Shown: piece after piece, positions 426 through 28,042 of the stretch | Numbering within the stretch: the first letter of the stretch is position 1 | Layout: each line of letters begins with the position of its first letter | From: Escherichia coli | GTDB lineage: Bacteria > Pseudomonadota > Gammaproteobacteria > Enterobacterales > Enterobacteriaceae | DNA length: 64,000 nt | Assembly: GCF_017348835.2 (NCBI RefSeq) | Contig: NZ_CP071375.1 | Reading direction: 5' to 3' (one strand) | Made by a program: the position numbers and the translations under genes | Notes under the pieces: model-generated | Told to the model about the DNA's origin: nothing | Database searches by the model: none | The model's input: only the letters and a program-made list of their open reading frames with translations

Positions 426-2591
426 ATGGCAGAACAGGCAGCGGCGGACCTGTTTGGTGCGTTGCCGGAACCGTCAGGTCTGGTTAAAGCCGCAGTAGCT
501 GCTGCGCAGGCTGCCGCTGCAGCAGCAGGGATCCCGGATATGGCTGGTGCAGTTCAGGATGCGGCGGCGTCGATTGCTGCCGGTGGACCGGGGGCGCATA
601 ACGTCACAGTAAGTGGTAGTGCGGTGCCGCCGCAGCTGCTTTTGTTTGCAGGCATGAATGGTTCGGAAGGGCTTGGAAACCTGTTTTCCTACACAGTACA
701 GCTTAAAACCCCGGATACCCTGAACCTCGGATATGTCTCCCCCGCAGCCAACCTGCCGCTCAAGCCGATGGTGGGCAAAGACCTGTGCGTCAGTATCGAA
801 CTGGACGGCGGCGGCAAACGGCATATCAGCGGGCTGGTGACAGCGGCGCGGGTGGTGGGCTATGAGGGCCGCTCGGTAACGTATGAATTACGCCTTGAGC
901 CGTGGCTGAAACTGCTGACCCATACCAGCGACTACAAAGCGTTCCAGAATAAAACCGTGGTGGATATTCTCGATGAAGTACTGGATGAATATTCCTTTCC
1001 GGTGGAAAAGCGGCTGGTGGAAAATTATCCACCCCGCGCCTGGCAGGTGCAGTATGGTGAAACCGACTTCGATTTCATCCAGCGCCTGATGCAGGAATGG
1101 GGGATTTACTGGTGGTTTGAGCACAGCGAGAACAGCCACACGCTGGTGCTGGCGGATGCCATCAATGGTCATAAAGCGTGCCCTGACTCGCCGCTGGTGG
1201 AGTGGCACCAGGAAGGGCTGAAACTGGACAAGGAATTTATCCACACCATTACGGCCAGTGAGAGGCTGCGTACTGGAAAGTGGGTGATGGACGATTTTGA
1301 TTTTATGAAGCCTCGTTCGCTGCTTAAAAGTACCGTGGCTAGTCCGCGTGATACCGGTCATGCTGAATACGAGCATTATGAATGGCCTGGTGATTACTTC
1401 ACTACGGGCGAAGGCGAGATGCTGACGCGCATTCGTATGGAAGCGCAGCGCAGCCCCGGCAGCCGGGCACATGGGGCAGGTCATATCCGCACCCTCATGA
1501 CGGGTTACACCTTTACGCTGATGAATCATCCAACGGCAGAGGTCAACCAGGAATACCTACTGGTACAGACCACGCTGTTTTTACGGGATAATGCGCAGCA
1601 CAGCGGTCAGGAGCAGCATTTTACCTATGTCACCACGTTTGAACTGCACCCCACCAGCGAAGTTTACCGCCCACAGCGAACCCTAAGCAAACCCCACACC
1701 AAAGGCCCGCAGAGCGCCATCGTCACCGGCCCGGCAGGGCAGGAAATCTGGACGGATAAATATGGCCGGGTGAAGGTGCAGTTTGGCTGGGACCGTTACC
1801 TGTACGATGCGGAACAGCCGTACACGCCGGTGGCCGCCATCACGGGGCGCGGAGAGAGCCGGAAAATCTGGTATTACCACACGGACCTGACGGGCACGGT
1901 ACAGGAGGTGACCGCGCCGGACGGGACGCTGGTGTGGGCGGGCTATCAGGCGGGATTTGGTGAAAACCGGGGCGACATCAGCAACAGCGGGGCGTACTTT
2001 GAGCAGCCGCTGCGGCTGCCGGGGCAGTATTATGATGAAGAGACGGGGCTGCACTATAATCTGTTCAGATATTATGCGCCGGAGTGCGGGAGGTTTATCA
2101 GTCAGGATCCGATTTCGATCCGTGGGGGGCTGAATCTTTACCGGTATGCGCCTAATCCGCTGAGATGGATTGATCCGCTTGGATTAGACTGGAATTATCA
2201 TTTAACAGATAGTGATGGTAAGGTTTATTATCATGGACGTGCAAGTGATAATGCGTCAATGGAAGATGTTGCCCGTCGTCACAGCAATACAACAGGAGCT
2301 GATAAGGCAAGATTTGGAGAAACAGATACCATGACACGAATAACTGAGCCGGGTACGCCAAAATTAACAGCACAAGGTGTGGAAGGTATTGCCATAGGTG
2401 ATAATACTATCGGGCGAAGAGCTGATAACGGTAATAGGGGTCGGGGTAATAATATTCGGGGTGTTAATCCCAATGCAACCAATGCTACTGAAAAACTAAA
2501 TGCGGGTAAAGAATTTTTAAATGGACGAATACCAAGTGAAATGACTGGTGAAACATTGACAGGTAAGGAGTATTTTGAATCAAAATGTTAA
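426..2591 (+). CDS. Chimeric VgrG N-terminal domain fused in frame to Rhs core C-terminus plus C-terminal toxin tip (CT1)
   Basis: 721-aa ORF. Residues ~70-455 carry VgrG motifs ([61 protein letters not shown]). From nt ~1800 the sequence becomes Rhs core ([21 protein letters not shown] ... PxxxxDPLGL, motif at 2172-2186), followed by a ~135-aa AT-rich unique tip. The true start may lie downstream of 426. Confidence 0.7.
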
Positions 2592-3463
2592 AATTAACCG
2601 ATGTAAATAAAAATGCATTAAGAATACTTAAAAAATATAACGTGCTGGCAGAAGGTGACATAATAAGAGGTCATCCATTAAGTGAGCGGGATTTGAAATA
2701 TGTTGAGGCGCATTGTATTACAACTGAAGAACGAGCCTTTTTAAATGAAAAAGGTTTGGGGTTCGGATTTATTTCTGTGACTCATGATGAAGCATTAAGA
2801 GATTCGTTTACATATTTTAAATCTTCTAATAAAAATGATGTGACAGCTTCTTTTCTGGTGAGCCTGAGTAGTGCCAGATTAGACTACAGAAGTGGATTGT
2901 CTGCATTTGCAATTATGCAAACAATGCCGATGCATGGCTTTGAACCAAATCAGGCTTCTTTTTGTAAAGTATGTTCCGCAGAAAAATATAAAAAGCATTT
3001 TGATCTAACCAGCTTAAATCAGACTCGTTTCTTTAGTGGTTCTCTAGCAGTCTTTAAAACTCCTTATGAAATTTCTTTTTTTCTGGAGCAACAATCAAAA
3101 TTGGAAGTCGTTCAGCCAACCGAAAAAGATTTCTCTATCTTTAATGCGATTTTGAAAATAATTGTTGACGCAGAATCTGGCGAAAAACTGACATCAATAA
3201 TTAAAAAAATTAGAGCGATTGATGGCTTCAGGATAACTACAGATCAGTGTCGATGTCTTCTGGAAACGCTGGGATTTTGTGGGATTCTGGAAACGAAGGA
3301 ACACAAAGGGTATCTGACTTACTTTACTAATCCTGGACTGGCTCCGAGTAAATCTCATAGTTCTAACTGGGCCTATCCGGTTGATTTCTGGACCGGAGGG
3401 GATGGAATAAATCGCGAAGCGTTAAAATTCTGGTTTGGTGAATATAAAGAAATTGTTATCTGA
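2585..3463 (+). CDS. Putative immunity protein for CT1 (292 aa, no recognised family)
   Basis: Start codon overlaps the CT1 stop (aATGTTAA); AT-rich like the toxin tip; position immediately after an Rhs CT is typical for immunity genes. Confidence 0.55.
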
Positions 3464-19543: not shown

Positions 19544-19822
19544 TTACCCAAAGAGCACCGCGTGAGTTCCAGTTCTCTCAAATCGTAAAAGTTTATCGGT
19601 AAGTTTGTAAATCAGGAGCCAGTCCGGTTCGACATGAGCATCGCGATAACCTTTCCATGAACCCTGCAGCGGGTGGTCTTTATAAACAGCTGGAAGCGGT
19701 AAAGTATTATTGATAAGAAGCGTCATAAGATATTTCAATTTATTCATATCATTATGACGCTTTTGTGCAAGTTTTACATCCTTTGAAAATTGTCCCGAGT
19801 ATTCAATATCCCTTTGAATCAT
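19544..19822 (-). CDS. yafQ: Type II toxin YafQ (RelE-like mRNA interferase)
   Basis: 92-aa product MIQRDIEYSGQFSKDVKLAQKRH... Confidence 0.9.
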   Translation of the reverse strand: MIQRDIEYSGQFSKDVKLAQKRHNDMNKLKYLMTLLINNTLPLPAVYKDHPLQGSWKGYRDAHVEPDWLLIYKLTDKLLRFERTGTHAVLFG

Positions 19823-19824
19823 AT

Positions 19825-20085
19825 TTAAATTCCTAATTTATCAAATAAATCATCGGCGTCTTTGGCCTTATGAACATCAACGCCAGCTTCGCTGTTTTTG
19901 ATTGATTGAATGGTTAATTGATTAGGCTCGCGTAAATCAAACGGCAATGCCTTTTCACGCGCGACCTTTGTGAGGGTTATGCGAACCAGGTCAGAGATGG
20001 TCAGCCCCATCCCGGCCAGTACGTCCGCCGCCTGATTCTTCAGATCTTCATCGATTCGGGCGCGAACAAATGCATTTGCAGCCAT
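19825..20085 (-). CDS. dinJ: Antitoxin DinJ
   Basis: 86-aa product MAANAFVRARIDEDLKNQAADVLAGMGLTISD... Confidence 0.9.
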   Translation of the reverse strand: MAANAFVRARIDEDLKNQAADVLAGMGLTISDLVRITLTKVAREKALPFDLREPNQLTIQSIKNSEAGVDVHKAKDADDLFDKLGI

Positions 20086-20101
20086 TGGGGTATCTCCTGT
20101 G

Positions 20102-20117
20102 CTGTATATATATTCAG
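20102..20117. promoter_or_regulatory. Putative LexA (SOS) box upstream of dinJ-yafQ
   Basis: CTGTATATATATTCAG, one mismatch to CTGT-N8-ACAG. Confidence 0.5.
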
Positions 20118-20294
20118 CTTGAATTGTAGCTCAATTGAGCAACAGCGGCAATTCATGAGCAATTCAATAAACTGATGTATTTACATAATTCACTGAAATA
20201 TATATGTTAATTTTATAATAATGGTTTATTAAGTTTGTTCAGAAACGATCCGGGATACACTGCAACATTAAAGCATGACCAGCCATTATTGAGT

Positions 20295-21044
20295 ATGTCC
20301 TTGCCGTCGATTCCATCCTTTGTATTGTCGGGATTACTGTTGATTTGTTTGCCGTTTTCTTCATTTGCCAGCGCCACCACATCACATATCTCTTTCAGCT
20401 ACGCCGCCCGCCAGCGGATGCAAAACCGTGCGCGTTTATTAAAACAGTACCAAATCCATCTGAAAAAACAGGCCAGCTATATTGTGGAAGGCAATGCCGA
20501 AAGCAGAAGGGCGCTACGCCTGCACAACCGCGAACAGATAAAACAGCACCCGGAGTGGTTTCCTGGTCCGCTCAAGGCGAACGACCGACGCTGGCAGGCG
20601 CTCGCAGAAAACAACCATTTCTTAAGCAGCGACCACCTGCATAACATCACCGAAGTGGCGATTCACCGCCTAGAGCAGCAGCTTGGCAAGCCTTACGTCT
20701 GGGGCGGCACGCGGCCCGATAAAGGCTTCGACTGTAGCGGGTTGGTTTTTTATGCCTACAACAAGATCCTTGAGGCGAAGCTCCCGCGCACGGCCAATGA
20801 GATGTATCACTACCGCCGGGCAACGATTGTGGCGAATAACGACCTGCGCCGGGGAGATTTGCTGTTTTTCCATATTCACAGTCGTGAGATTGCCGACCAT
20901 ATGGGGGTGTATCTGGGCGATGGGCAATTTATCGAGTCGCCACGCACCGGGGAAACCATTCGGGTAAGCCAGTTAGCTGAACCTTTCTGGCAGGACCATT
21001 TTTTGGGCGCGCGCAGGATTTTGACGGAAGAGACGATTTTGTAA
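20295..21044 (+). CDS. yafL: NlpC/P60-family lipoprotein peptidase YafL
   Basis: MSLPSIPSFVLSGLLLICLPFSSFA... signal/lipobox-like N-terminus; Cys-containing DCSGLV motif. Confidence 0.85.
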   Translation: MSLPSIPSFVLSGLLLICLPFSSFASATTSHISFSYAARQRMQNRARLLKQYQIHLKKQASYIVEGNAESRRALRLHNREQIKQHPEWFPGPLKANDRRWQALAENNHFLSSDHLHNITEVAIHRLEQQLGKPYVWGGTRPDKGFDCSGLVFYAYNKILEAKLPRTANEMYHYRRATIVANNDLRRGDLLFFHIHSREIADHMGVYLGDGQFIESPRTGETIRVSQLAEPFWQDHFLGARRILTEETIL

Positions 21045-21100
21045 ATGGGTAATATTGACGAACTGGCAAAAGGCCGGATGCCACACGGCATCCGACTTGT

Positions 21101-21457
21101 TTACATCTGGGCTGAAAACTCACGTTCTAAGACATCAACAATGAGCTGGTTTTTTGAAATGGAATGTTGTCTGGCGACGATGGTCAGCCGCGAATCAATG
21201 TGATGAGGAACACGAAGCGTCAGGCGTTTTTGCTCTTCTTCTTCACGAAAAGGGGCAATACCGTCCTCTTCACAATCCGCCATCCACTCATCCAGCGCGC
21301 TTTCGCCCTCACGATATAATGCCTCAATGCTTGTGGCTACAAAGTCACAATAACCGTTTACATTGAGGAATTTGCCGCGAAATGCATTGATATCGGCTTC
21401 AAATGTCACTGCGGCTGGTTGACCTTTAATTGTGATAATGTTCGATGCTTTATTCAT
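21101..21457 (-). CDS. HicB-like antitoxin (N-terminal HicB fold, C-terminal ribbon-helix-helix)
   Basis: 118 aa; ...FEADINAFRGKFLNVNGYCDFVATSIEAL...EDGIAPF... then RLTLRVPHHIDSRLTIVARQHSISKNQLIVDVLEREF. Confidence 0.5.
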   Translation of the reverse strand: MNKASNIITIKGQPAAVTFEADINAFRGKFLNVNGYCDFVATSIEALYREGESALDEWMADCEEDGIAPFREEEEQKRLTLRVPHHIDSRLTIVARQHSISKNQLIVDVLEREFSAQM

Positions 21458-21749
21458 AATCTACCCCTACACAGTTAACAAACCACTCCTTAAGACCTGC
21501 TACTGCGCCTTTATCCATCACATTCTTTGGATGTGGCTCATGTGTACTGAATTTGGTCGTTCCAATCTGAAATTTCCTTCTGGACCCATTGTTATTTTTT
21601 ATTGTTCCACCCACCGCTTTAATGAGCGCAACAACATCATCCCATTTAATTCCAGATTTTGGCGGCTCCGTCATTACATCGTCGAATGTTTTTCTATGGC
21701 GGGAGCCTAGCGCGCTGACCTTAATCATACTATCAATCCATGACATCAT
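21450..21749 (-). CDS. HicA-like toxin (start uncertain; may be shorter than the 99-aa ORF)
   Basis: ...GSRRKFQIGTTKFSTHEPHPKNVMDKGAVAGLKEWF resembles the HicA signature; stop overlaps the HicB-like start. Confidence 0.45.
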   Translation of the reverse strand: MMSWIDSMIKVSALGSRHRKTFDDVMTEPPKSGIKWDDVVALIKAVGGTIKNNNGSRRKFQIGTTKFSTHEPHPKNVMDKGAVAGLKEWFVNCVGVDYE

Positions 21750-21832
21750 TGTATGGTGTCATCGTAGTATGTTTGCAATGTGACGTCAATCAATGGTGTC
21801 AGATGCATGCAAAGCATGGAAAAGAATCCCCA

Positions 21833-23572
21833 TCAACTCAACGCCCCCATAATCTTCAACTCCAGCTCATCCGGCACTTCGTTATACGACAGCACATGCA
21901 GCCCCGGCGCAAACAACCTTGCGTAGCGCGCTAGCAAAGGGCGCAGCTGCGGCGGCACCAGCAGCACCGGGTCTTTCCCCGCCGCTTTCATCTGCTCCTT
22001 CACCTGCGGCATCGTGCTCTGGAACTGGTTGAGCATATTCGGGTCGACCGGCACGCTGTCGAGCATCACTTTGCCGCCCTGTTGCGCCTGATTCACCACG
22101 TTGGTCAGCAGATTTTCCAGCTCATTATTCAGCGTATACACCGTCAGCTCCTGCTTGCGAACGAAAGGATGAGTAATGCTGCGCCGCAGCGCCAGGCGCA
22201 CATCGGCCGCCAGCAGAATATGATCTTTGGTCACCGCGCTACTGGCGACCAGCACGGTGGCGATGGTGACGATGTCGCGCAGGGAAACGCCTTCGGTCAG
22301 CAGCGCACGGTACACTTTCAGCAACTGGCTGTAATTCAGCGCCGCGCTCAAATCCTCCGCCAGGCGCGGTGCCATTGACGACAAACGGTTATGCAACTGC
22401 GTGATGTCATCATAGTTAAACAAATCAGGAATATAACTGCGCACAATCTTATTCACATGGGTGGCAATCACGCTGGCGCTGTCGATCACCTGATACCCCA
22501 TATTCAGCGCCTTCGCTTTCTGCGCAGGCTGGATCCAGGTGACTGGCATCCCATACGCCGGGTCGTTCCCCAGCACGCCGTCTATCTCGCCGTAGGTTTC
22601 GCTGGAGGGCAGGGCCATCAGTTTATCCGCCGGAATATCCGCTTCATCAGCCTTAATGCCGTTGATGAAAATGGCGTACTGGCTGGGCTTGAGGCGGAAA
22701 TTTTCCCTAATGCGGATCTCCGGCAGCAGCACGCCGTTGCCGTCGGATATCACCTGCCGCACGCCGCGGATCCGCTGGGTGAGCGGGTTACCCTGTGCTT
22801 TATCGACCAGCGCTACTAGCTTGTAGCCAAGGCTTAAGCTGATGGGTTCGATCAGCGGAATGGTTTCCCAACTGACCTGTTGCTCGCTGGTTTCAGTGAT
22901 GGTGCGGGTCAGCGTTTCGAGGCTTTTCTCCTCCGCCTCTGCCGCCTGCGGCTGTTTGCTCATTCGCCAGCCGGTAAAGCCAAGCAGGGCGCTGAACATC
23001 AGGAACGGCAGGTGCGGCATCCCCGGCACCACTGCCAGCACAAACATAATTCCGGTAGCGGTGTAGAGCACCGACGGGCTTGCCAGCAGTTGGTTACGCA
23101 CGTCATGGGCGATATCGCCGTTGTCGCTGACGCGGGTGACGATAATCGCCGCTGCGGTGGAGAGCAGCAGGGAAGGGATCTGCGCCACCAGCCCATCGCC
23201 GATGGTCATCAGCACATATTGCTGGAAGGCGGCATCGGCGCTCAGGTTGTATTTGAAGATCCTGATACAGACGCCGCCGATCAGGTTGATCGCCAGAATC
23301 ATCATCCCGGCGATGGCATCCCCGCGCACAAACTTCGATGCCCCGTCCATCGCGCCGTAGAAATCGGCTTCGCTGGCGACATCTTTACGCCGGGTTTGCG
23401 CCTGCGCCTGGTTGATCAATCCGGCGTTAAGGTCGGCGTCAATCGCCATCTGCTTGCCGGGCATCGCGTCAAGGGTAAAGCGGGCAGAAACCTCGGAAAT
23501 ACGCTCGGCCCCTTTGGTGACGACAATAAAGTTGATTGTCAACAGCGTCAGTAAATCCGAGCGTGAAAGCAT
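21833..23572 (-). pseudogene. lfhA: FlhA-family export protein remnant lacking its N-terminal membrane domain (Flag-2 remnant)
   Basis: 579-aa product homologous to the FlhA central and C-terminal regions; first ~110 aa absent. Confidence 0.8.
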
Positions 23573-24302
23573 TATCGCCGCGCTGCACGGGCAGTCGATT
23601 TTTAACGGTGGTGGGCTGTCGCCGTTAAATAAAATCAGCCCGTCTCATCCGCCAAAACCTGCCACCGTGGCGGTGCCGGAAGAGACGGAGAAAAAAGCGC
23701 GTGATGTGAATGAGAAAACGGCGCTGCTGAAGAAGAAATCCGCCACCGAGCTTGGCGAGTTGGCAACCAGTATCAACACCATTGCCCGTGATGCGCATAT
23801 GGAAGCGAATCTGGAGATGGAGATTGTTCCCCAGGGATTACGCGTGCTGATTAAAGACGACCAGAATCGCAATATGTTCGAACGCGGCAGCGCGAAGATT
23901 ATGCCGTTCTTTAAAACGCTGCTGGTGGAGCTAGCGCCAGTGTTCGACTCGCTCGATAACAAAATTATTATTACCGGGCATACCGATGCGATGGCCTACA
24001 AAAACAATATCTACAACAACTGGAACCTTTCGGGCGATCGCGCGCTTTCAGCTCGTCGGGTGCTGGAAGAGGCCGGAATGCCGGAAGATAAAGTGATGCA
24101 GGTAAGCGCAATGGCGGACCAGATGCTGCTGGATGCCAAAAATCCGCAAAGCGCGGGCAATCGGCGTATTGAGATTATGGTGCTGACCAAAAGTGCGTCC
24201 GATACGCTGTATCAATACTTTGGTCAGCATGGGGATAAAGTGGTGCAGCCACTGGTGCAAAAGCTGGATAAGCAGCAGGTGCTTTCGCAGCGAACGCGTT
24301 AA
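23412..24302 (+). pseudogene. lafU: MotB/OmpA-like protein remnant (Flag-2 remnant); true start uncertain, ORF overlaps lfhA
   Basis: C-terminal OmpA-like domain (IIITGHTDAMAYKNNIYNNWNLSGDRALSARRVLEE); no N-terminal transmembrane segment. Confidence 0.65.
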
Positions 24303-24372: not shown

Positions 24373-25428
24373 ATGCGTAAAATCATTCATGTGGATATGG
24401 ACTGCTTTTTCGCAGCGGTGGAGATGCGCGACAATCCCGCCCTGCGCGATATCCCTATTGCTATTGGCGGCAGCCGCGAACGTCGAGGGGTGATCAGCAC
24501 CGCCAATTATCCCGCGCGTAAATTTGGCGTACGTAGCGCTATGCCGACAGGGATGGCGCTCAAATTATGCCCACATCTCACCTTGCTTCCGGGGCGCTTT
24601 GACGCCTACAAAGAAGCCTCAAATCATATCCGTGAAATCTTCTCGCGCTACACCTCGCGCATTGAACCGTTGTCACTGGATGAAGCCTATCTCGATGTCA
24701 CCGATAGCGTCCATTGCCACGGTTCTGCGACCCTCATCGCCCAGGAAATCCGCCAGACGATTTTCAGCGAGCTGCAACTGACGGCGTCTGCGGGCGTGGC
24801 ACCAGTAAAGTTTCTCGCCAAAATCGCCTCCGACATGAATAAACCCAACGGCCAGTTTGTGATTACGCCGGCAGAAGTTCCGGCATTTTTACAAACCTTA
24901 CCACTGGCAAAAATCCCCGGCGTCGGCAAAGTCTCGGCGGCAAAACTGGAAGCGATGGGGCTGCGGACCTGCGGTGATGTACAAAAGTGTGATCTGGTGA
25001 TGCTGCTTAAACGCTTTGGCAAATTTGGCCGCATTTTGTGGGAGCGTAGTCAGGGGATTGACGAACGCGATGTTAACAGCGAACGGTTGCGAAAATCCGT
25101 CGGCGTGGAACGCACGATGGCGGAAGATATTCATCACTGGTCTGAATGTGAAGCGATTATCGAGCGGCTGTATCCGGAACTTGAACGCCGTCTGGCAAAG
25201 GTAAAACCTGATTTACTGATTGCTCGCCAGGGGGTGAAATTAAAGTTCGACGATTTTCAGCAAACCACTCAGGAGCACGTCTGGCCGCGGCTGAATAAAG
25301 CTGACTTAATCGCCACCGCGCGTAAAACCTGGGATGAACGCCGCGGCGGGCGCGGTGTGCGACTGGTGGGGCTGCATGTGACGTTGCTTGACCCGCAAAT
25401 GGAAAGACAACTGGTGCTGGGATTATGA
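24373..25428 (+). CDS. dinB: DNA polymerase IV
   Basis: 351-aa product [33 protein letters not shown]... Confidence 0.95.
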
Positions 25429-25877
25429 ATAACATACAAATAAGAAACTATCAGCCTGGCGATTTTCAGCAACTATGCGCTATTTTCATTAGAGCGGTTA
25501 TGATGACCGCCAGTCAGCATTATTCACCACAACAAATTGCCGCCTGGGCGCAGATTGACGAATCTCGCTGGAAGGAGAAACTCGCGAAATCACAAGTGCG
25601 GGTTGCAGTCATTAATGCACAACCGGTTGGTTTTATTTCCCGCATTGAACATTATATCGATATGTTATTTGTTGACCCTGAATACACCCGCCGTGGGGTT
25701 GCCAGCGCTTTGTTAAAACCTTGGATTAAGTCTGAATCCGAACTTACGGTGGACGCAAGCATAACCGCAAAACCCTTTTTTGAACGTTATGGTTTTCAGA
25801 CAGTTAAGCAGCAGCGCGTTGAATGCCGGGGAGCGTGGTTTACTAATTTTTCTATGCGATATAAACCGCAACATTAA
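25425..25877 (+). CDS. yafP: GNAT-family acetyltransferase YafP
   Basis: 150-aa product; ATG overlaps the dinB stop. Confidence 0.85.
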
Positions 25878-26828: not shown

Positions 26829-27716
26829 TCAGGCTGCCAGATCATTATTTCCGATGGAAGCATAATAAGCTTTTTCTGCTTCTGCCGGAGGAATATGGCC
26901 CAGCCTTTCCAGCAATCGTCGATTGTTATACCAGTCCACCCACGTTAGTGTGGCCAGTTCCACTTCTGTCCGGTTTTTCCAGCTCTTACGGTGTATTACC
27001 TCCGCTTTGTAAAGACCATTGATGCTCTCCGCCATCGCGTTGTCATACGAGTCGCCAGTACTCCCTGTTGATGCCAGTAATCCGGCTTCCTTAAGCCGCT
27101 GCGTGTAGGCCAGCGATACATACTGAGAACCTTTATCACTGTGATGGATTGTGCCGGACGGCCGACGGGCCCACAACGCCTGCTCCAGTGCATCCAGCAC
27201 GAATGTTGTTTCCATGGATGATGAGACCTGCCATCCCACGATGTATCCGGCGAACACATCAATGATGAACGCCACATAAACGAAGCCCTGCCATGTGCTT
27301 ACCCAGGTAAAATCAGCCACCCACAACTGGTCTGGACGTTCTGCCACGAACTGACGGTTTACGCGGTCGCATGCGGCAACGGCTTTCCGGCTGACGGTAG
27401 TGCGGACCTTTTTACCCCGGAGAACACCGGCAAGTCCCATAACTGCCATGAGACGTGCCACAGTGCATCTGGCCACTCTGATACCTTCCCGTAACAACTG
27501 ACGCCAGACTTTACGCACACCGTATACCTGGTGATTTTCATCGTATACGCGCTGTATCTCTTTCTTCAGCCAGTCATCGTGCTGCGCACGGGCACTGCGT
27601 TTATCCGGATGATGTCGCTGTTGCTGACAATGGTAATACGTTGACGGGGCAATATGCAGTTCGCTGCATACCGGTCCGACCCCGTACTGCTCACGCAGCT
27701 TATCCAGCAGTGGCAT
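26829..27716 (-). CDS. IS629-like transposase OrfB (DDE catalytic domain)
   Basis: 295 aa; start overlaps the orfA stop, consistent with IS3-type frameshifting. Confidence 0.85.
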   Translation of the reverse strand: MPLLDKLREQYGVGPVCSELHIAPSTYYHCQQQRHHPDKRSARAQHDDWLKKEIQRVYDENHQVYGVRKVWRQLLREGIRVARCTVARLMAVMGLAGVLRGKKVRTTVSRKAVAACDRVNRQFVAERPDQLWVADFTWVSTWQGFVYVAFIIDVFAGYIVGWQVSSSMETTFVLDALEQALWARRPSGTIHHSDKGSQYVSLAYTQRLKEAGLLASTGSTGDSYDNAMAESINGLYKAEVIHRKSWKNRTEVELATLTWVDWYNNRRLLERLGHIPPAEAEKAYYASIGNNDLAA

Positions 27717-28042
27717 TATTTTTTCCAGAGGCGGTCGAACTCCGCCTTCGCAAAATAAGCGGAAGCCTGGCGAAGGATATCGTTACTGCGGCGCAGTTCA
27801 CGATTTTCACGTTCCAGCTCTTTCAGACGCTGACGTTCAGCGGTGGTGAGTCCACCATCACCACTCCCGGTATCCCGCTCATGCTGGCGAACCCAGACAC
27901 GCAGAGTCTCCGGCGTACAGCCAATCTTTGGGGCAATGGAACAAATTGCCGCCCACTGTGAGTCATATTCATCCTGACTTTCCAGAACCATACGAATCGC
28001 CCGCTGACGGACTTCGGGGGAAAAACGAGTATTTTTAGTCAT
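27716..28042 (-). CDS. IS629-like transposase OrfA
   Basis: 108 aa, [26 protein letters not shown]..., helix-turn-helix. Confidence 0.85.

What the first reader, a model, noticed from the sequence alone, without database searches (positions are those of the whole stretch)
21101..21749. HicA/HicB-like toxin-antitoxin pair between yafL and lfhA
Two overlapping minus-strand ORFs (99 and 118 aa) have HicA-like and HicB-like features, the latter with a C-terminal ribbon-helix-helix. In E. coli K-12 the gene between yafL and lfhA is rayT (yafM), as I recall it. No RayT-like product is present here, so this interval is strain-variable and here holds a second TA module only ~1 kb from yafQ-dinJ.
Basis: partly seen in the sequence, partly recalled or inferred. 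Interest (0 to 1): 0.45.

Follow-up and report, generated by a model that had tools for sequence, protein, structure and literature searches.

The report
Known hicAB toxin-antitoxin cassette replacing rayT
Between yafL and the lfhA pseudogene this E. coli strain carries a hicA-hicB toxin-antitoxin pair instead of the K-12 gene rayT, a swap published in 2012 and routinely annotated; the one unusual detail is that this HicA has an arginine where studied HicA RNases have their essential histidine.

Summary
Two minus-strand ORFs overlapping by 8 nt (hicB 21101-21457, 118 aa; hicA 21450-21749, 99 aa, true start probably Met8 at 21728, giving 92 aa) pass Pfam's thresholds for HicA_toxin and HicB. 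AlphaFold models retrieve solved HicA and HicB structures. The 794-bp yafL-lfhA interval (21044-21837) replaces the 902-bp rayT/BIME interval of K-12.

It is not new. NCBI annotates the pair as HicA/HicB in 1,370 of 5,426 complete E. coli genomes, against 3,575 with rayT. Ton-Hoang et al. 2012 (PMC3333891) described this replacement in B1-clade strains.

Best explanation: a horizontally acquired type II TA cassette of Gerdes Class 4 (toxin first, HicB with a C-terminal RHH). Its sigma-70-like promoter is bracketed by two 21-nt operator-like boxes. Allele groups differ by 9-10 synonymous and 0 non-synonymous changes in hicA. No genome has hicA without hicB, while 109 keep hicB alone.

The twist: this HicA belongs to a large 'long HicA' subfamily with an extra N-terminal helix. 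It has G-S-Arg where all characterised HicAs have the catalytic G-S-His, plus a conserved H-x-P-H-P motif. I found no solved structure and no experimental study of this subfamily. Toxicity, RNase activity and catalytic residues are therefore inferred, not shown.

The parts
21450..21728 (-). hicA, a 92-aa 'long HicA' toxin candidate. The mechanical ORF extends to 21749 (99 aa), but Met8 is the conserved start. In 92-aa numbering: extra N-terminal helix 9-19, then the dsRBD-like core a1 29-38, b1 42-45, b2 50-55, b3 58-63, a2 73-87. Motif G48-S49-R50, with Arg at the position of the catalytic His, and motif H63-E-P-H66-P67.
21101..21457 (-). hicB, a 118-aa antitoxin/repressor candidate. [quoted passage not shown] The start overlaps the hicA stop by 8 nt, which suggests translational coupling.
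   Evidence: PF05534 at residues 60-110; family alignment; model pLDDT 86; Foldseek top hits: B. pseudomallei HicB 6g26, Y. pestis HicB3 4p7d/4p78, TTHA0281, E. coli HicB 6u0i, Arc repressor; PHROG HicB-like antitoxin and Arc-like repressor.
21761..21789 (-). Sigma-70-like promoter candidate for hicAB: TTGACG, 17-nt spacer, TACGAT.
   Evidence: 9 of 12 consensus matches. The same -35/-10 layout is conserved upstream of homologous cassettes in unrelated contexts. Transcription itself was not shown.
21781..21801 (-). Distal operator-like box TGACACCATTGATTGACGTCA. It has two TGACRYCA-type half-sites 13 nt apart and contains the -35 hexamer.
   Evidence: the pattern TGACRYCA-N5-TGAYGTCA occurs only twice in 64 kb; 0 matches in 100 shuffles; boxes conserved in a Salmonella IncFII plasmid and two other enterobacterial loci while the flanks diverge.
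21741..21761 (-). Proximal operator-like box TGACACCATACAATGATGTCA. It abuts the -10 hexamer and covers the expected transcription start.
21075..21094 (.). GC-rich 8-bp hairpin (CGGATGCC-ACAC-GGCATCCG) between the convergent yafL and hicB genes. It is a probable bidirectional terminator and is REP-like in sequence.
   Evidence: It is retained with a loop change and a wobble change in other alleles. Function is inferred.
21044..21837 (.). The whole 794-bp variable segment. Homology to K-12 stops at the yafL stop codon (21043/21044) and resumes at 21838, just past the lfhA stop. K-12 has 902 bp here containing rayT and BIMEs.
   Evidence: PMC3333891.

Best explanation
[quoted passage not shown] In a quarter of E. 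coli genomes it occupies the yafL-lfhA intergenic site, where most strains carry the REP-associated transposase gene rayT.

Proposed mechanism, inferred from the family. One promoter transcribes hicA-hicB, and hicB is translationally coupled to hicA through the 8-nt overlap. The HicB N-terminal domain binds HicA and masks its RNA-binding and active face. HicB RHH dimers bind the two 21-nt boxes that overlap the -35 region and the transcription start, and so repress the operon. When HicB is depleted, free HicA binds RNA through its dsRBD-like core and cleaves it, arresting growth.

Shown here: family and fold membership of both proteins, gene architecture, the conserved operator-like layout, purifying selection, population distribution and the replacement boundaries.

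Inferred: toxicity, RNase activity, neutralisation by HicB and autorepression.

Specific deviation: the residue at the start of strand b2, which is the essential catalytic His in every characterised HicA, is Arg (R50) here and in about 85% of this subfamily. Catalysis, if it occurs, probably relies on R50 together with the conserved H63 and H66.
For: - Pfam HicA_toxin and HicB hits pass the gathering thresholds, and all 92 sampled subfamily members hit PF07927.
- PHROG hits are 'toxin', 'HicB-like antitoxin' and 'Arc-like repressor'.
- PGAP annotates the pair as HicA/HicB.
- Distant subfamily members are likewise followed by an overlapping PF05534 hicB.
- The two operator-like boxes are unique in the window, and their layout is conserved in a Salmonella plasmid and other enterobacterial loci.
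- hicA shows 9-10 synonymous and 0 non-synonymous differences between allele groups.
- 1,370 genomes carry hicA and all of them carry hicB; 109 carry hicB alone; none carries hicA alone.
- The cassette sits in unrelated contexts in other enterobacteria, on plasmids and in phages.
- The rayT-to-hicAB replacement is published (PMC3333891).
Against: - The canonical catalytic His of the G-S-H motif is absent. hhalign, the G-S-x motif and the position at the start of b2 in the model all put R50 there. That His is essential in the Y. pestis, B. pseudomallei, S. pneumoniae and N. gonorrhoeae HicAs (PMC11594946, PMC6159526, PMC12297915).
- The Pfam score for HicA is only 3 bits above threshold.
- Sequence and profile searches find no solved structure for this subfamily.
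- I found no experimental work on this subfamily or on this E. coli locus.
- There is no PADLOC hit.
- No HicA-HicB complex was modelled.
Confidence: 0.8

Rival explanations
1. The pair has HicAB architecture, but this HicA acts differently from the characterised His-dependent mRNA interferases. It might cleave RNA with a rebuilt active site (R50 with H63/H66), have a different target, or bind RNA or the ribosome without cleaving. This refines the main explanation rather than excluding it.
For: R50 occupies the catalytic His position. G-S-R is present in 115 of 141 subfamily representatives and G-S-H in only 3. H63 is present in 136 of 141 and H66 in 138 of 141. Two of the three G-S-H members lack H63. 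An extra conserved N-terminal helix (KTLxxIFxxP) is specific to the subfamily. In gonococcal HicA, the His equivalent to H66 lies close in space to the catalytic His (PMC12297915).
Against: No biochemical data exist either way. The covariation rests on three sequences that are not phylogenetically independent. In gonococcal HicA, mutating the residue equivalent to H66 did not affect toxicity. Model coordinates could not be inspected, so the proximity of R50, H63 and H66 in this protein is unverified.
Confidence: 0.35
2. The HicA here is a catalytically dead, non-toxic relic. The pair persists as a HicB-centred regulator or anti-addiction module rather than as a working toxin-antitoxin system.
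For: The canonical catalytic His is missing. 109 genomes get by with hicB alone. No toxicity data exist.
Against: hicA is under strong purifying selection, with 0 non-synonymous against 9-10 synonymous changes. The G-S-R and HxPHP motifs are conserved across hundreds of 50%-identity clusters. hicA is never found without hicB in 5,426 genomes. The module is carried on plasmids and phages, where addiction-type functions are expected.
Confidence: 0.1
3. The cassette's main role is anti-phage defence by abortive infection, as proposed generally for HicA systems, rather than stabilisation of the locus.
For: Gerdes 2024 (PMC10865869) argues for this role for HicA domains in general. Relatives occur in temperate phages and next to phage genes.
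Against: There is no PADLOC match. The neighbours (yafL, lfhA remnant, dinB) are not a defence island. There are no phage-challenge data. This rival concerns biological role and is compatible with the mechanism given.
Confidence: 0.2

Closest known systems
hicAB between yafL and fhiA (lfhA) in E. coli B1-clade strains such as IAI1 (Ton-Hoang et al. 2012, NAR, PMC3333891)
   Same: It is the same locus and the same event: tnpAREP (rayT) and its BIMEs are replaced by hicA and hicB. The frequencies agree. They found 24 of 110 genomes with hicAB and 74 of 110 with tnpAREP. Here the counts are 1,370 and 3,575 of 5,426.
   Different: Nothing differs at the level of the locus. That paper did not analyse the proteins, operators or catalytic residues.
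RHH-type HicAB systems with solved structures: B. pseudomallei HicAB (6g26), Y. pestis HicA3B3 (4p78/4p7d), S. pneumoniae HicBA (5yrz). These fall in Gerdes Class 4.
   Same: The toxin gene comes first. HicA has the dsRBD-like fold. HicB has an N-terminal partial RNase H-like domain and a C-terminal RHH. Palindromic operator-like sites lie in the promoter.
   Different: Sequence similarity is too low for HMMER to connect them. HicA here has about 28 extra N-terminal residues that form a conserved helix. It has Arg instead of the catalytic His and an added conserved His (H63). HicB matches PF05534, with no hit to PF15919.
E. coli K-12 HicAB (hicA b4532 / hicB b1438; 6hpb)
   Different: It sits at a different locus (1.509 Mb in K-12). 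K-12 HicA is 58 aa with G-S-N-His23. K-12 HicB has a helix-turn-helix DNA-binding domain rather than an RHH (PMC10865869). The K-12 genes are separated rather than overlapping.
Plasmid and phage copies of the same subfamily, for example Salmonella IncFII plasmid pHL21C, Xenorhabdus plasmids and Ralstonia phage Dina
   Same: 92-aa HicA with G-S-R, a 115-118-aa PF05534 HicB, the 8-nt overlap, and the same two-box TGACGTCA operator-like layout.
   Different: About 63-66% protein identity (about 40% for the phage copies) and a different replicon context. Like this locus, I found no characterisation of them.

Membership tests
Pfam PF07927 HicA_toxin (sequence/fold family) | Profile score at or above the curated gathering threshold | tested here: met
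   30.2-30.4 bits against a cutoff of 27, at residues 29-77 of the 92-aa protein. All 92 sampled subfamily members hit PF07927, with a best E-value of 3.5e-12. The margin for this protein is small.
Pfam PF07927 HicA_toxin (sequence/fold family) | dsRBD-like alpha-beta-beta-beta-alpha fold | tested here: met
Characterised HicA mRNA interferases (His-dependent RNases) | Conserved Gly-Ser-His, with the catalytic His at the start of strand b2 | tested here: not met
   Gly48 and Ser49 are present, but the next residue is Arg50. hhalign aligns R50 with His23 of K-12 HicA, and b2 starts at residue 50 in the model. The subfamily has G-S-R in 115 of 141 and G-S-H in 3 of 141. The essentiality of this His in other HicAs comes from the literature.
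Characterised HicA mRNA interferases (His-dependent RNases) | Growth arrest on expression and RNA cleavage | not testable with these tools
   This needs expression and RNase assays. Indirect support comes from purifying selection and the absence of hicA without hicB.
HicB antitoxins, RHH type (PF05534; Gerdes Class 4) | C-terminal ribbon-helix-helix DNA-binding domain | tested here: met
   PF05534 at 40.5 bits against a cutoff of 21, residues 60-110. PHROG Arc-like repressor hit at residues 72-115. Model helices at 85-97 and 102-117. Foldseek hits to Arc repressor with probability 0.91.
HicB antitoxins, RHH type (PF05534; Gerdes Class 4) | N-terminal partial RNase H-like HicB domain | tested here: met
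   The model has four strands and a long helix at residues 7-65 with pLDDT about 90. Foldseek top hits are the HicBs 6g26_A/B, 4p7d, 4p78_A, 2dsy, 6u0i and 6g1c, with probability up to 1.0 but E-values of only 0.025 or worse. PHROG 'HicB-like antitoxin' spans residues 6-114. There was no Pfam hit to PF15919.
Type II toxin-antitoxin operon (HicAB arrangement) | Adjacent co-oriented toxin and antitoxin genes with the toxin upstream, and the pairing conserved across relatives | tested here: met
   The 8-nt overlap is seen here and in the Salmonella plasmid. Distant members are followed by an overlapping PF05534 gene.
Type II toxin-antitoxin operon (HicAB arrangement) | Autoregulated promoter with antitoxin operators | tested here: inconclusive
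   A promoter-like site and two unique 21-nt boxes overlap it, and the layout is conserved across five loci. Binding by HicB was not tested.
Type II toxin-antitoxin operon (HicAB arrangement) | Direct HicA-HicB binding and neutralisation | not tested

The most novel reading that the evidence does not exclude
The 'long HicA' subfamily to which this protein belongs has an extra N-terminal helix, G-S-Arg in place of the catalytic G-S-His, an added conserved His in an H-x-P-H-P motif, and a constant PF05534 HicB partner. It may be a mechanistically distinct branch of HicA toxins, with a rebuilt active site or a different target. I found no experimental study or solved structure for it, even though it is present in a quarter of E. 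coli genomes.
Probability: 0.3. Interest if true: 0.45.

Novelty: already known. Interest (0 to 1): 0.2.

Why it matters
As a locus it matters little. The swap of rayT for hicAB is a documented example of how one intergenic site in E. coli alternates between two selfish or mobile cargoes, and the genes are already annotated.

Its modest value is as a convenient entry point to an unstudied branch of the HicA family. The cassette is small and present in well-known strains, including EPEC E2348/69 and O103, O111 and O145 strains. Closely related model strains such as K-12 carry rayT at this site instead. A few mutants (R50A, H63A, H66A) and an RNase assay would show whether HicA toxins can work without the histidine that is currently treated as their single defining catalytic residue.

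Tried and rejected
- **PDB sequence searches.** Sequence and profile searches with HicA, its subfamily profile and HicB found no HicA or HicB chains. Only fold comparison connected them.
- **NCBIfam.** It gave only sub-threshold noise: NepR and YlcI/YnfO at about 12 bits.
- **PADLOC.** No hit, so there is no database support for a defence role.
- **Rfam over 20000-23000.** Only sub-threshold chance matches, so no known RNA element is present.
- **E. coli 'plasmid' hits.** These are megabase-sized records carrying yafL and flhA, that is, mis-assigned chromosome. I rejected them as evidence for plasmid carriage in E. coli.
- **The 99-aa start.** Rejected in favour of Met8, because the extension is absent or unrelated in homologues and out of frame in the Salmonella copy.
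- **Literature searches.** Searches by protein accession and for reports of a His-to-Arg HicA variant found nothing. This is a limited library, so it is not proof of absence.
- **REP/BIME remnant.** I considered whether the 21075-21094 hairpin is a REP/BIME remnant. It shares GCCGGATGC with REPs but is shorter. Ton-Hoang et al. report no BIME trace, so I treat it as a terminator-like hairpin only.

Full report
**1. The observation**

The ORF list shows two minus-strand ORFs at the coordinates given. One is 21101..21457 (118 aa) and the other is 21450..21749 (99 aa). They overlap by 8 nt, with the upstream ORF ending GAT TAT GAA TAA and the downstream ATG embedded in it.

A 100% identical stretch in E. 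coli PE164 is annotated by NCBI as follows:
- yafL (C40 peptidase)
- HicB family antitoxin
- HicA family toxin
- FlhA pseudogene (lfhA)
- lafU
- dinB

In that record dinJ-yafQ lies just upstream of yafL. In the window, yafQ and dinJ are at 19544-19822 and 19825-20085, so the two modules are about 1 kb apart. PGAP and nearly all homologues start HicA at the second in-frame Met cluster (MIKV...), giving 92 aa at 21450..21728. The seven extra residues are not conserved. In a Salmonella plasmid copy the upstream ATG is in another frame.

**2. Family assignment**

Pfam gives HicA_toxin (PF07927) at 30.2 bits against a gathering score of 27. It gives HicB (PF05534, an RHH-type domain) at 40.5 bits against 21. 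PHROGs gives 'toxin' (phrog_8887, E 2.4e-20, covering residues 9-85), 'HicB-like antitoxin' (phrog_9151) and 'Arc-like repressor' for HicB residues 72-115. NCBIfam and PADLOC give nothing useful.

Sequence searches against the PDB find no HicA or HicB, even with a subfamily profile. I therefore tested the folds.

- **HicB.** The model (27-sequence alignment, pLDDT 86) has four strands and a long helix at residues 7-65, followed by two C-terminal helices. Its best Foldseek matches are B. pseudomallei HicB, Y. pestis HicB3, TTHA0281, E. coli HicB and Arc repressor. E-values are weak but the set is consistent.

Both proteins are therefore HicA-fold and HicB-fold proteins. In Gerdes' scheme the arrangement is Class 4: hicA first, and HicB with a C-terminal RHH (PMC10865869).

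**3. The interval across E. coli**

Against K-12, homology ends at the yafL stop codon (window 21043) and resumes at 21838, just beyond the lfhA stop. A 794-bp segment here therefore replaces 902 bp in K-12 that hold rayT and its BIMEs.

Among 5,426 complete genomes:

| Interval state | Genomes |
|---|---|
| Full hicAB module | 1,370 |
| hicB only | 109 |
| rayT | 3,575 |

Carriers include O145:H28, O103:H2, O111:H8 and O104:H21 strains and EPEC E2348/69.

This is what Ton-Hoang et al. reported in 2012. Of 110 genomes, 74 had tnpAREP between yafL and fhiA. [quoted passage not shown] IAI1)' with no trace of the BIMEs (PMC3333891). The finding is correct but already known.

**4. Evidence that the cassette is functional and mobile**

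- **Selection.** The window allele and the E2348/69 and O103:H2 alleles are about 96% identical in nucleotides. They differ by 9-10 synonymous and 0 non-synonymous changes in hicA, and by 4 synonymous and 0-1 non-synonymous changes in hicB.
- **Co-occurrence.** Every genome with hicA also has hicB, and none has hicA alone. In one hicB-only genome (FDAARGOS_1281), hicA has been deleted internally. A few 5' codons are left fused in frame to hicB behind the -10 element and the proximal box. This is the decay pattern expected if the toxin is harmful without its partner.
- **Mobility.** Close relatives sit in unrelated chromosomal contexts in other enterobacteria. They also occur on Salmonella IncFII and small plasmids, on Yersinia and Xenorhabdus plasmids, and, more distantly, in Ralstonia and Burkholderia phages. 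The E. coli 'plasmid' hits are mis-assigned chromosome.

**5. Regulation (inferred)**

Upstream of hicA lies a sigma-70-like promoter, TTGACG-17-TACGAT, at 21789..21761. Two 21-nt boxes bracket it:
- TGACACCATTGATTGACGTCA at 21781-21801, which contains the -35 hexamer.
- TGACACCATACAATGATGTCA at 21741-21761, which abuts the -10 hexamer.

The pattern TGACRYCA-N5-TGAYGTCA occurs only at these two places in the 64-kb window, and never in 100 shuffles. The same layout recurs upstream of the Salmonella plasmid copy and two other enterobacterial copies, while the surrounding sequence diverges. That layout is box, -35 inside the box, -10, second box, with four TGACGTCA-like half-sites in all. This fits autorepression by the RHH dimers of HicB, but binding was not tested.

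A GC-rich hairpin at 21075-21094 between the convergent yafL and hicB genes looks like a bidirectional terminator.

**6. The one unusual point**

An exhaustive profile search found 722 50%-identity clusters at E <= 0.001, and 104 at E <= 1e-10. These form an 84-92-aa 'long HicA' family that aligns from about residue 7 to 85, so it includes the extra N-terminal helix.

Conservation in 141 representatives is striking (92-aa numbering):
- the KTLxxIFxxP motif
- W29
- G40
- G48-S49-R50 (G-S-R in 115, G-S-H in only 3)
- H63-x-P65-H66-P67 (H63 in 136, H66 in 138)

Profile-profile alignment with the K-12 HicA family puts R50 opposite the catalytic His23, and H66-P67 opposite His38-Pro39. In the model, R50 is the first residue of b2, which is where the catalytic His sits in characterised HicAs (PMC12297915). 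That His is essential in the Y. pestis (H28), B. pseudomallei (H24), S. pneumoniae (H36) and N. gonorrhoeae (H24) toxins. Kim et al. call it the only conserved His of the reported HicAs.

This protein therefore belongs to the Pfam and fold family, but it fails the catalytic-motif test of the characterised enzymes. Two of the three subfamily members that do have G-S-H lack H63. That is a weak hint, from three non-independent sequences, that H63 may stand in for the canonical His. In gonococcal HicA the residue equivalent to H66 is close in space to the catalytic His, but it was dispensable there.

Distant members of the subfamily are also followed by an overlapping PF05534 hicB, so the pairing is a family trait. 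I found no solved structure and no experimental paper on this subfamily or on this E. coli locus. The searchable library is limited, so this is not proof of absence.

**7. Verdict**

The module is a bona fide HicAB-type cassette by sequence, fold, architecture and population behaviour. Its substitution for rayT is real. Both facts are already in the literature and in routine annotation, so novelty is 'already known' and interest is low.

The residual interest is that the toxin belongs to a large branch of HicA that I could not find characterised, and that lacks the canonical catalytic histidine. Toxicity, RNase activity and autorepression are inferences that a handful of simple experiments would settle.

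Noticed in passing
window 24373-25877: dinB (24373-25428) is followed directly by yafP (25425-25877, 4-nt overlap). The yafN-yafO toxin-antitoxin pair that sits between them in K-12 is absent, and homology to K-12 stops at the dinB stop codon. Compared with K-12, this strain therefore has hicAB in place of rayT at one site and lacks yafNO within 4 kb of it.
   Followed up: partly
L003 (E. coli FDAARGOS_1281) 2035-3430; about 109 genomes: About 109 complete E. coli genomes keep hicB but not hicA. In the one examined, hicA is internally deleted and a few 5' codons are fused in frame to hicB. The -35 element and distal box are lost, and the neighbouring dinJ-yafQ module is also missing.
   Followed up: partly
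92-aa HicA positions 50 and 63 (window codons within 21450-21728); alignment: In the long-HicA subfamily, two of the three representatives that have the canonical G-S-His lack the otherwise near-invariant H63. This hints that H63 may substitute for the canonical catalytic His in G-S-Arg members. The sample is very small and not phylogenetically independent.
   Followed up: partly
window 21075-21094: An 8-bp GC-rich hairpin (CGGATGCC ACAC GGCATCCG) lies between the convergent yafL and hicB genes. It shares GCCGGATGC with REP elements and looks like a bidirectional terminator. It lies inside the cassette that replaced the REP/BIME-rich rayT region.
   Followed up: partly
window 21833-24302: An lfhA pseudogene (N-terminally truncated FlhA homologue, 21833-23572) and lafU (23412-24302) are present. 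They are remnants of the Flag-2 lateral flagellar locus, deleted in the same way as in K-12.
   Followed up: no
window about 26829-28042: Two overlapping minus-strand ORFs (295 aa and 108 aa) lie where the 100%-identical strain F2_81 is annotated with an IS3-family transposase, shortly after yafP and before pepD/gpt/frsA/phoE. Strain PE164, identical at the hicAB locus, has prophage tail genes beyond the IS, so the region downstream of yafP is also strain-variable.
   Followed up: partly
L012 (metagenome contig) 233-2862; phage records: Distant long-HicA/PF05534-HicB pairs sit next to phage tail-like genes (E217 gp31/gp32 families) and inside Ralstonia and Burkholderia temperate phages. The subfamily therefore travels on phages as well as on plasmids.
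   Followed up: no
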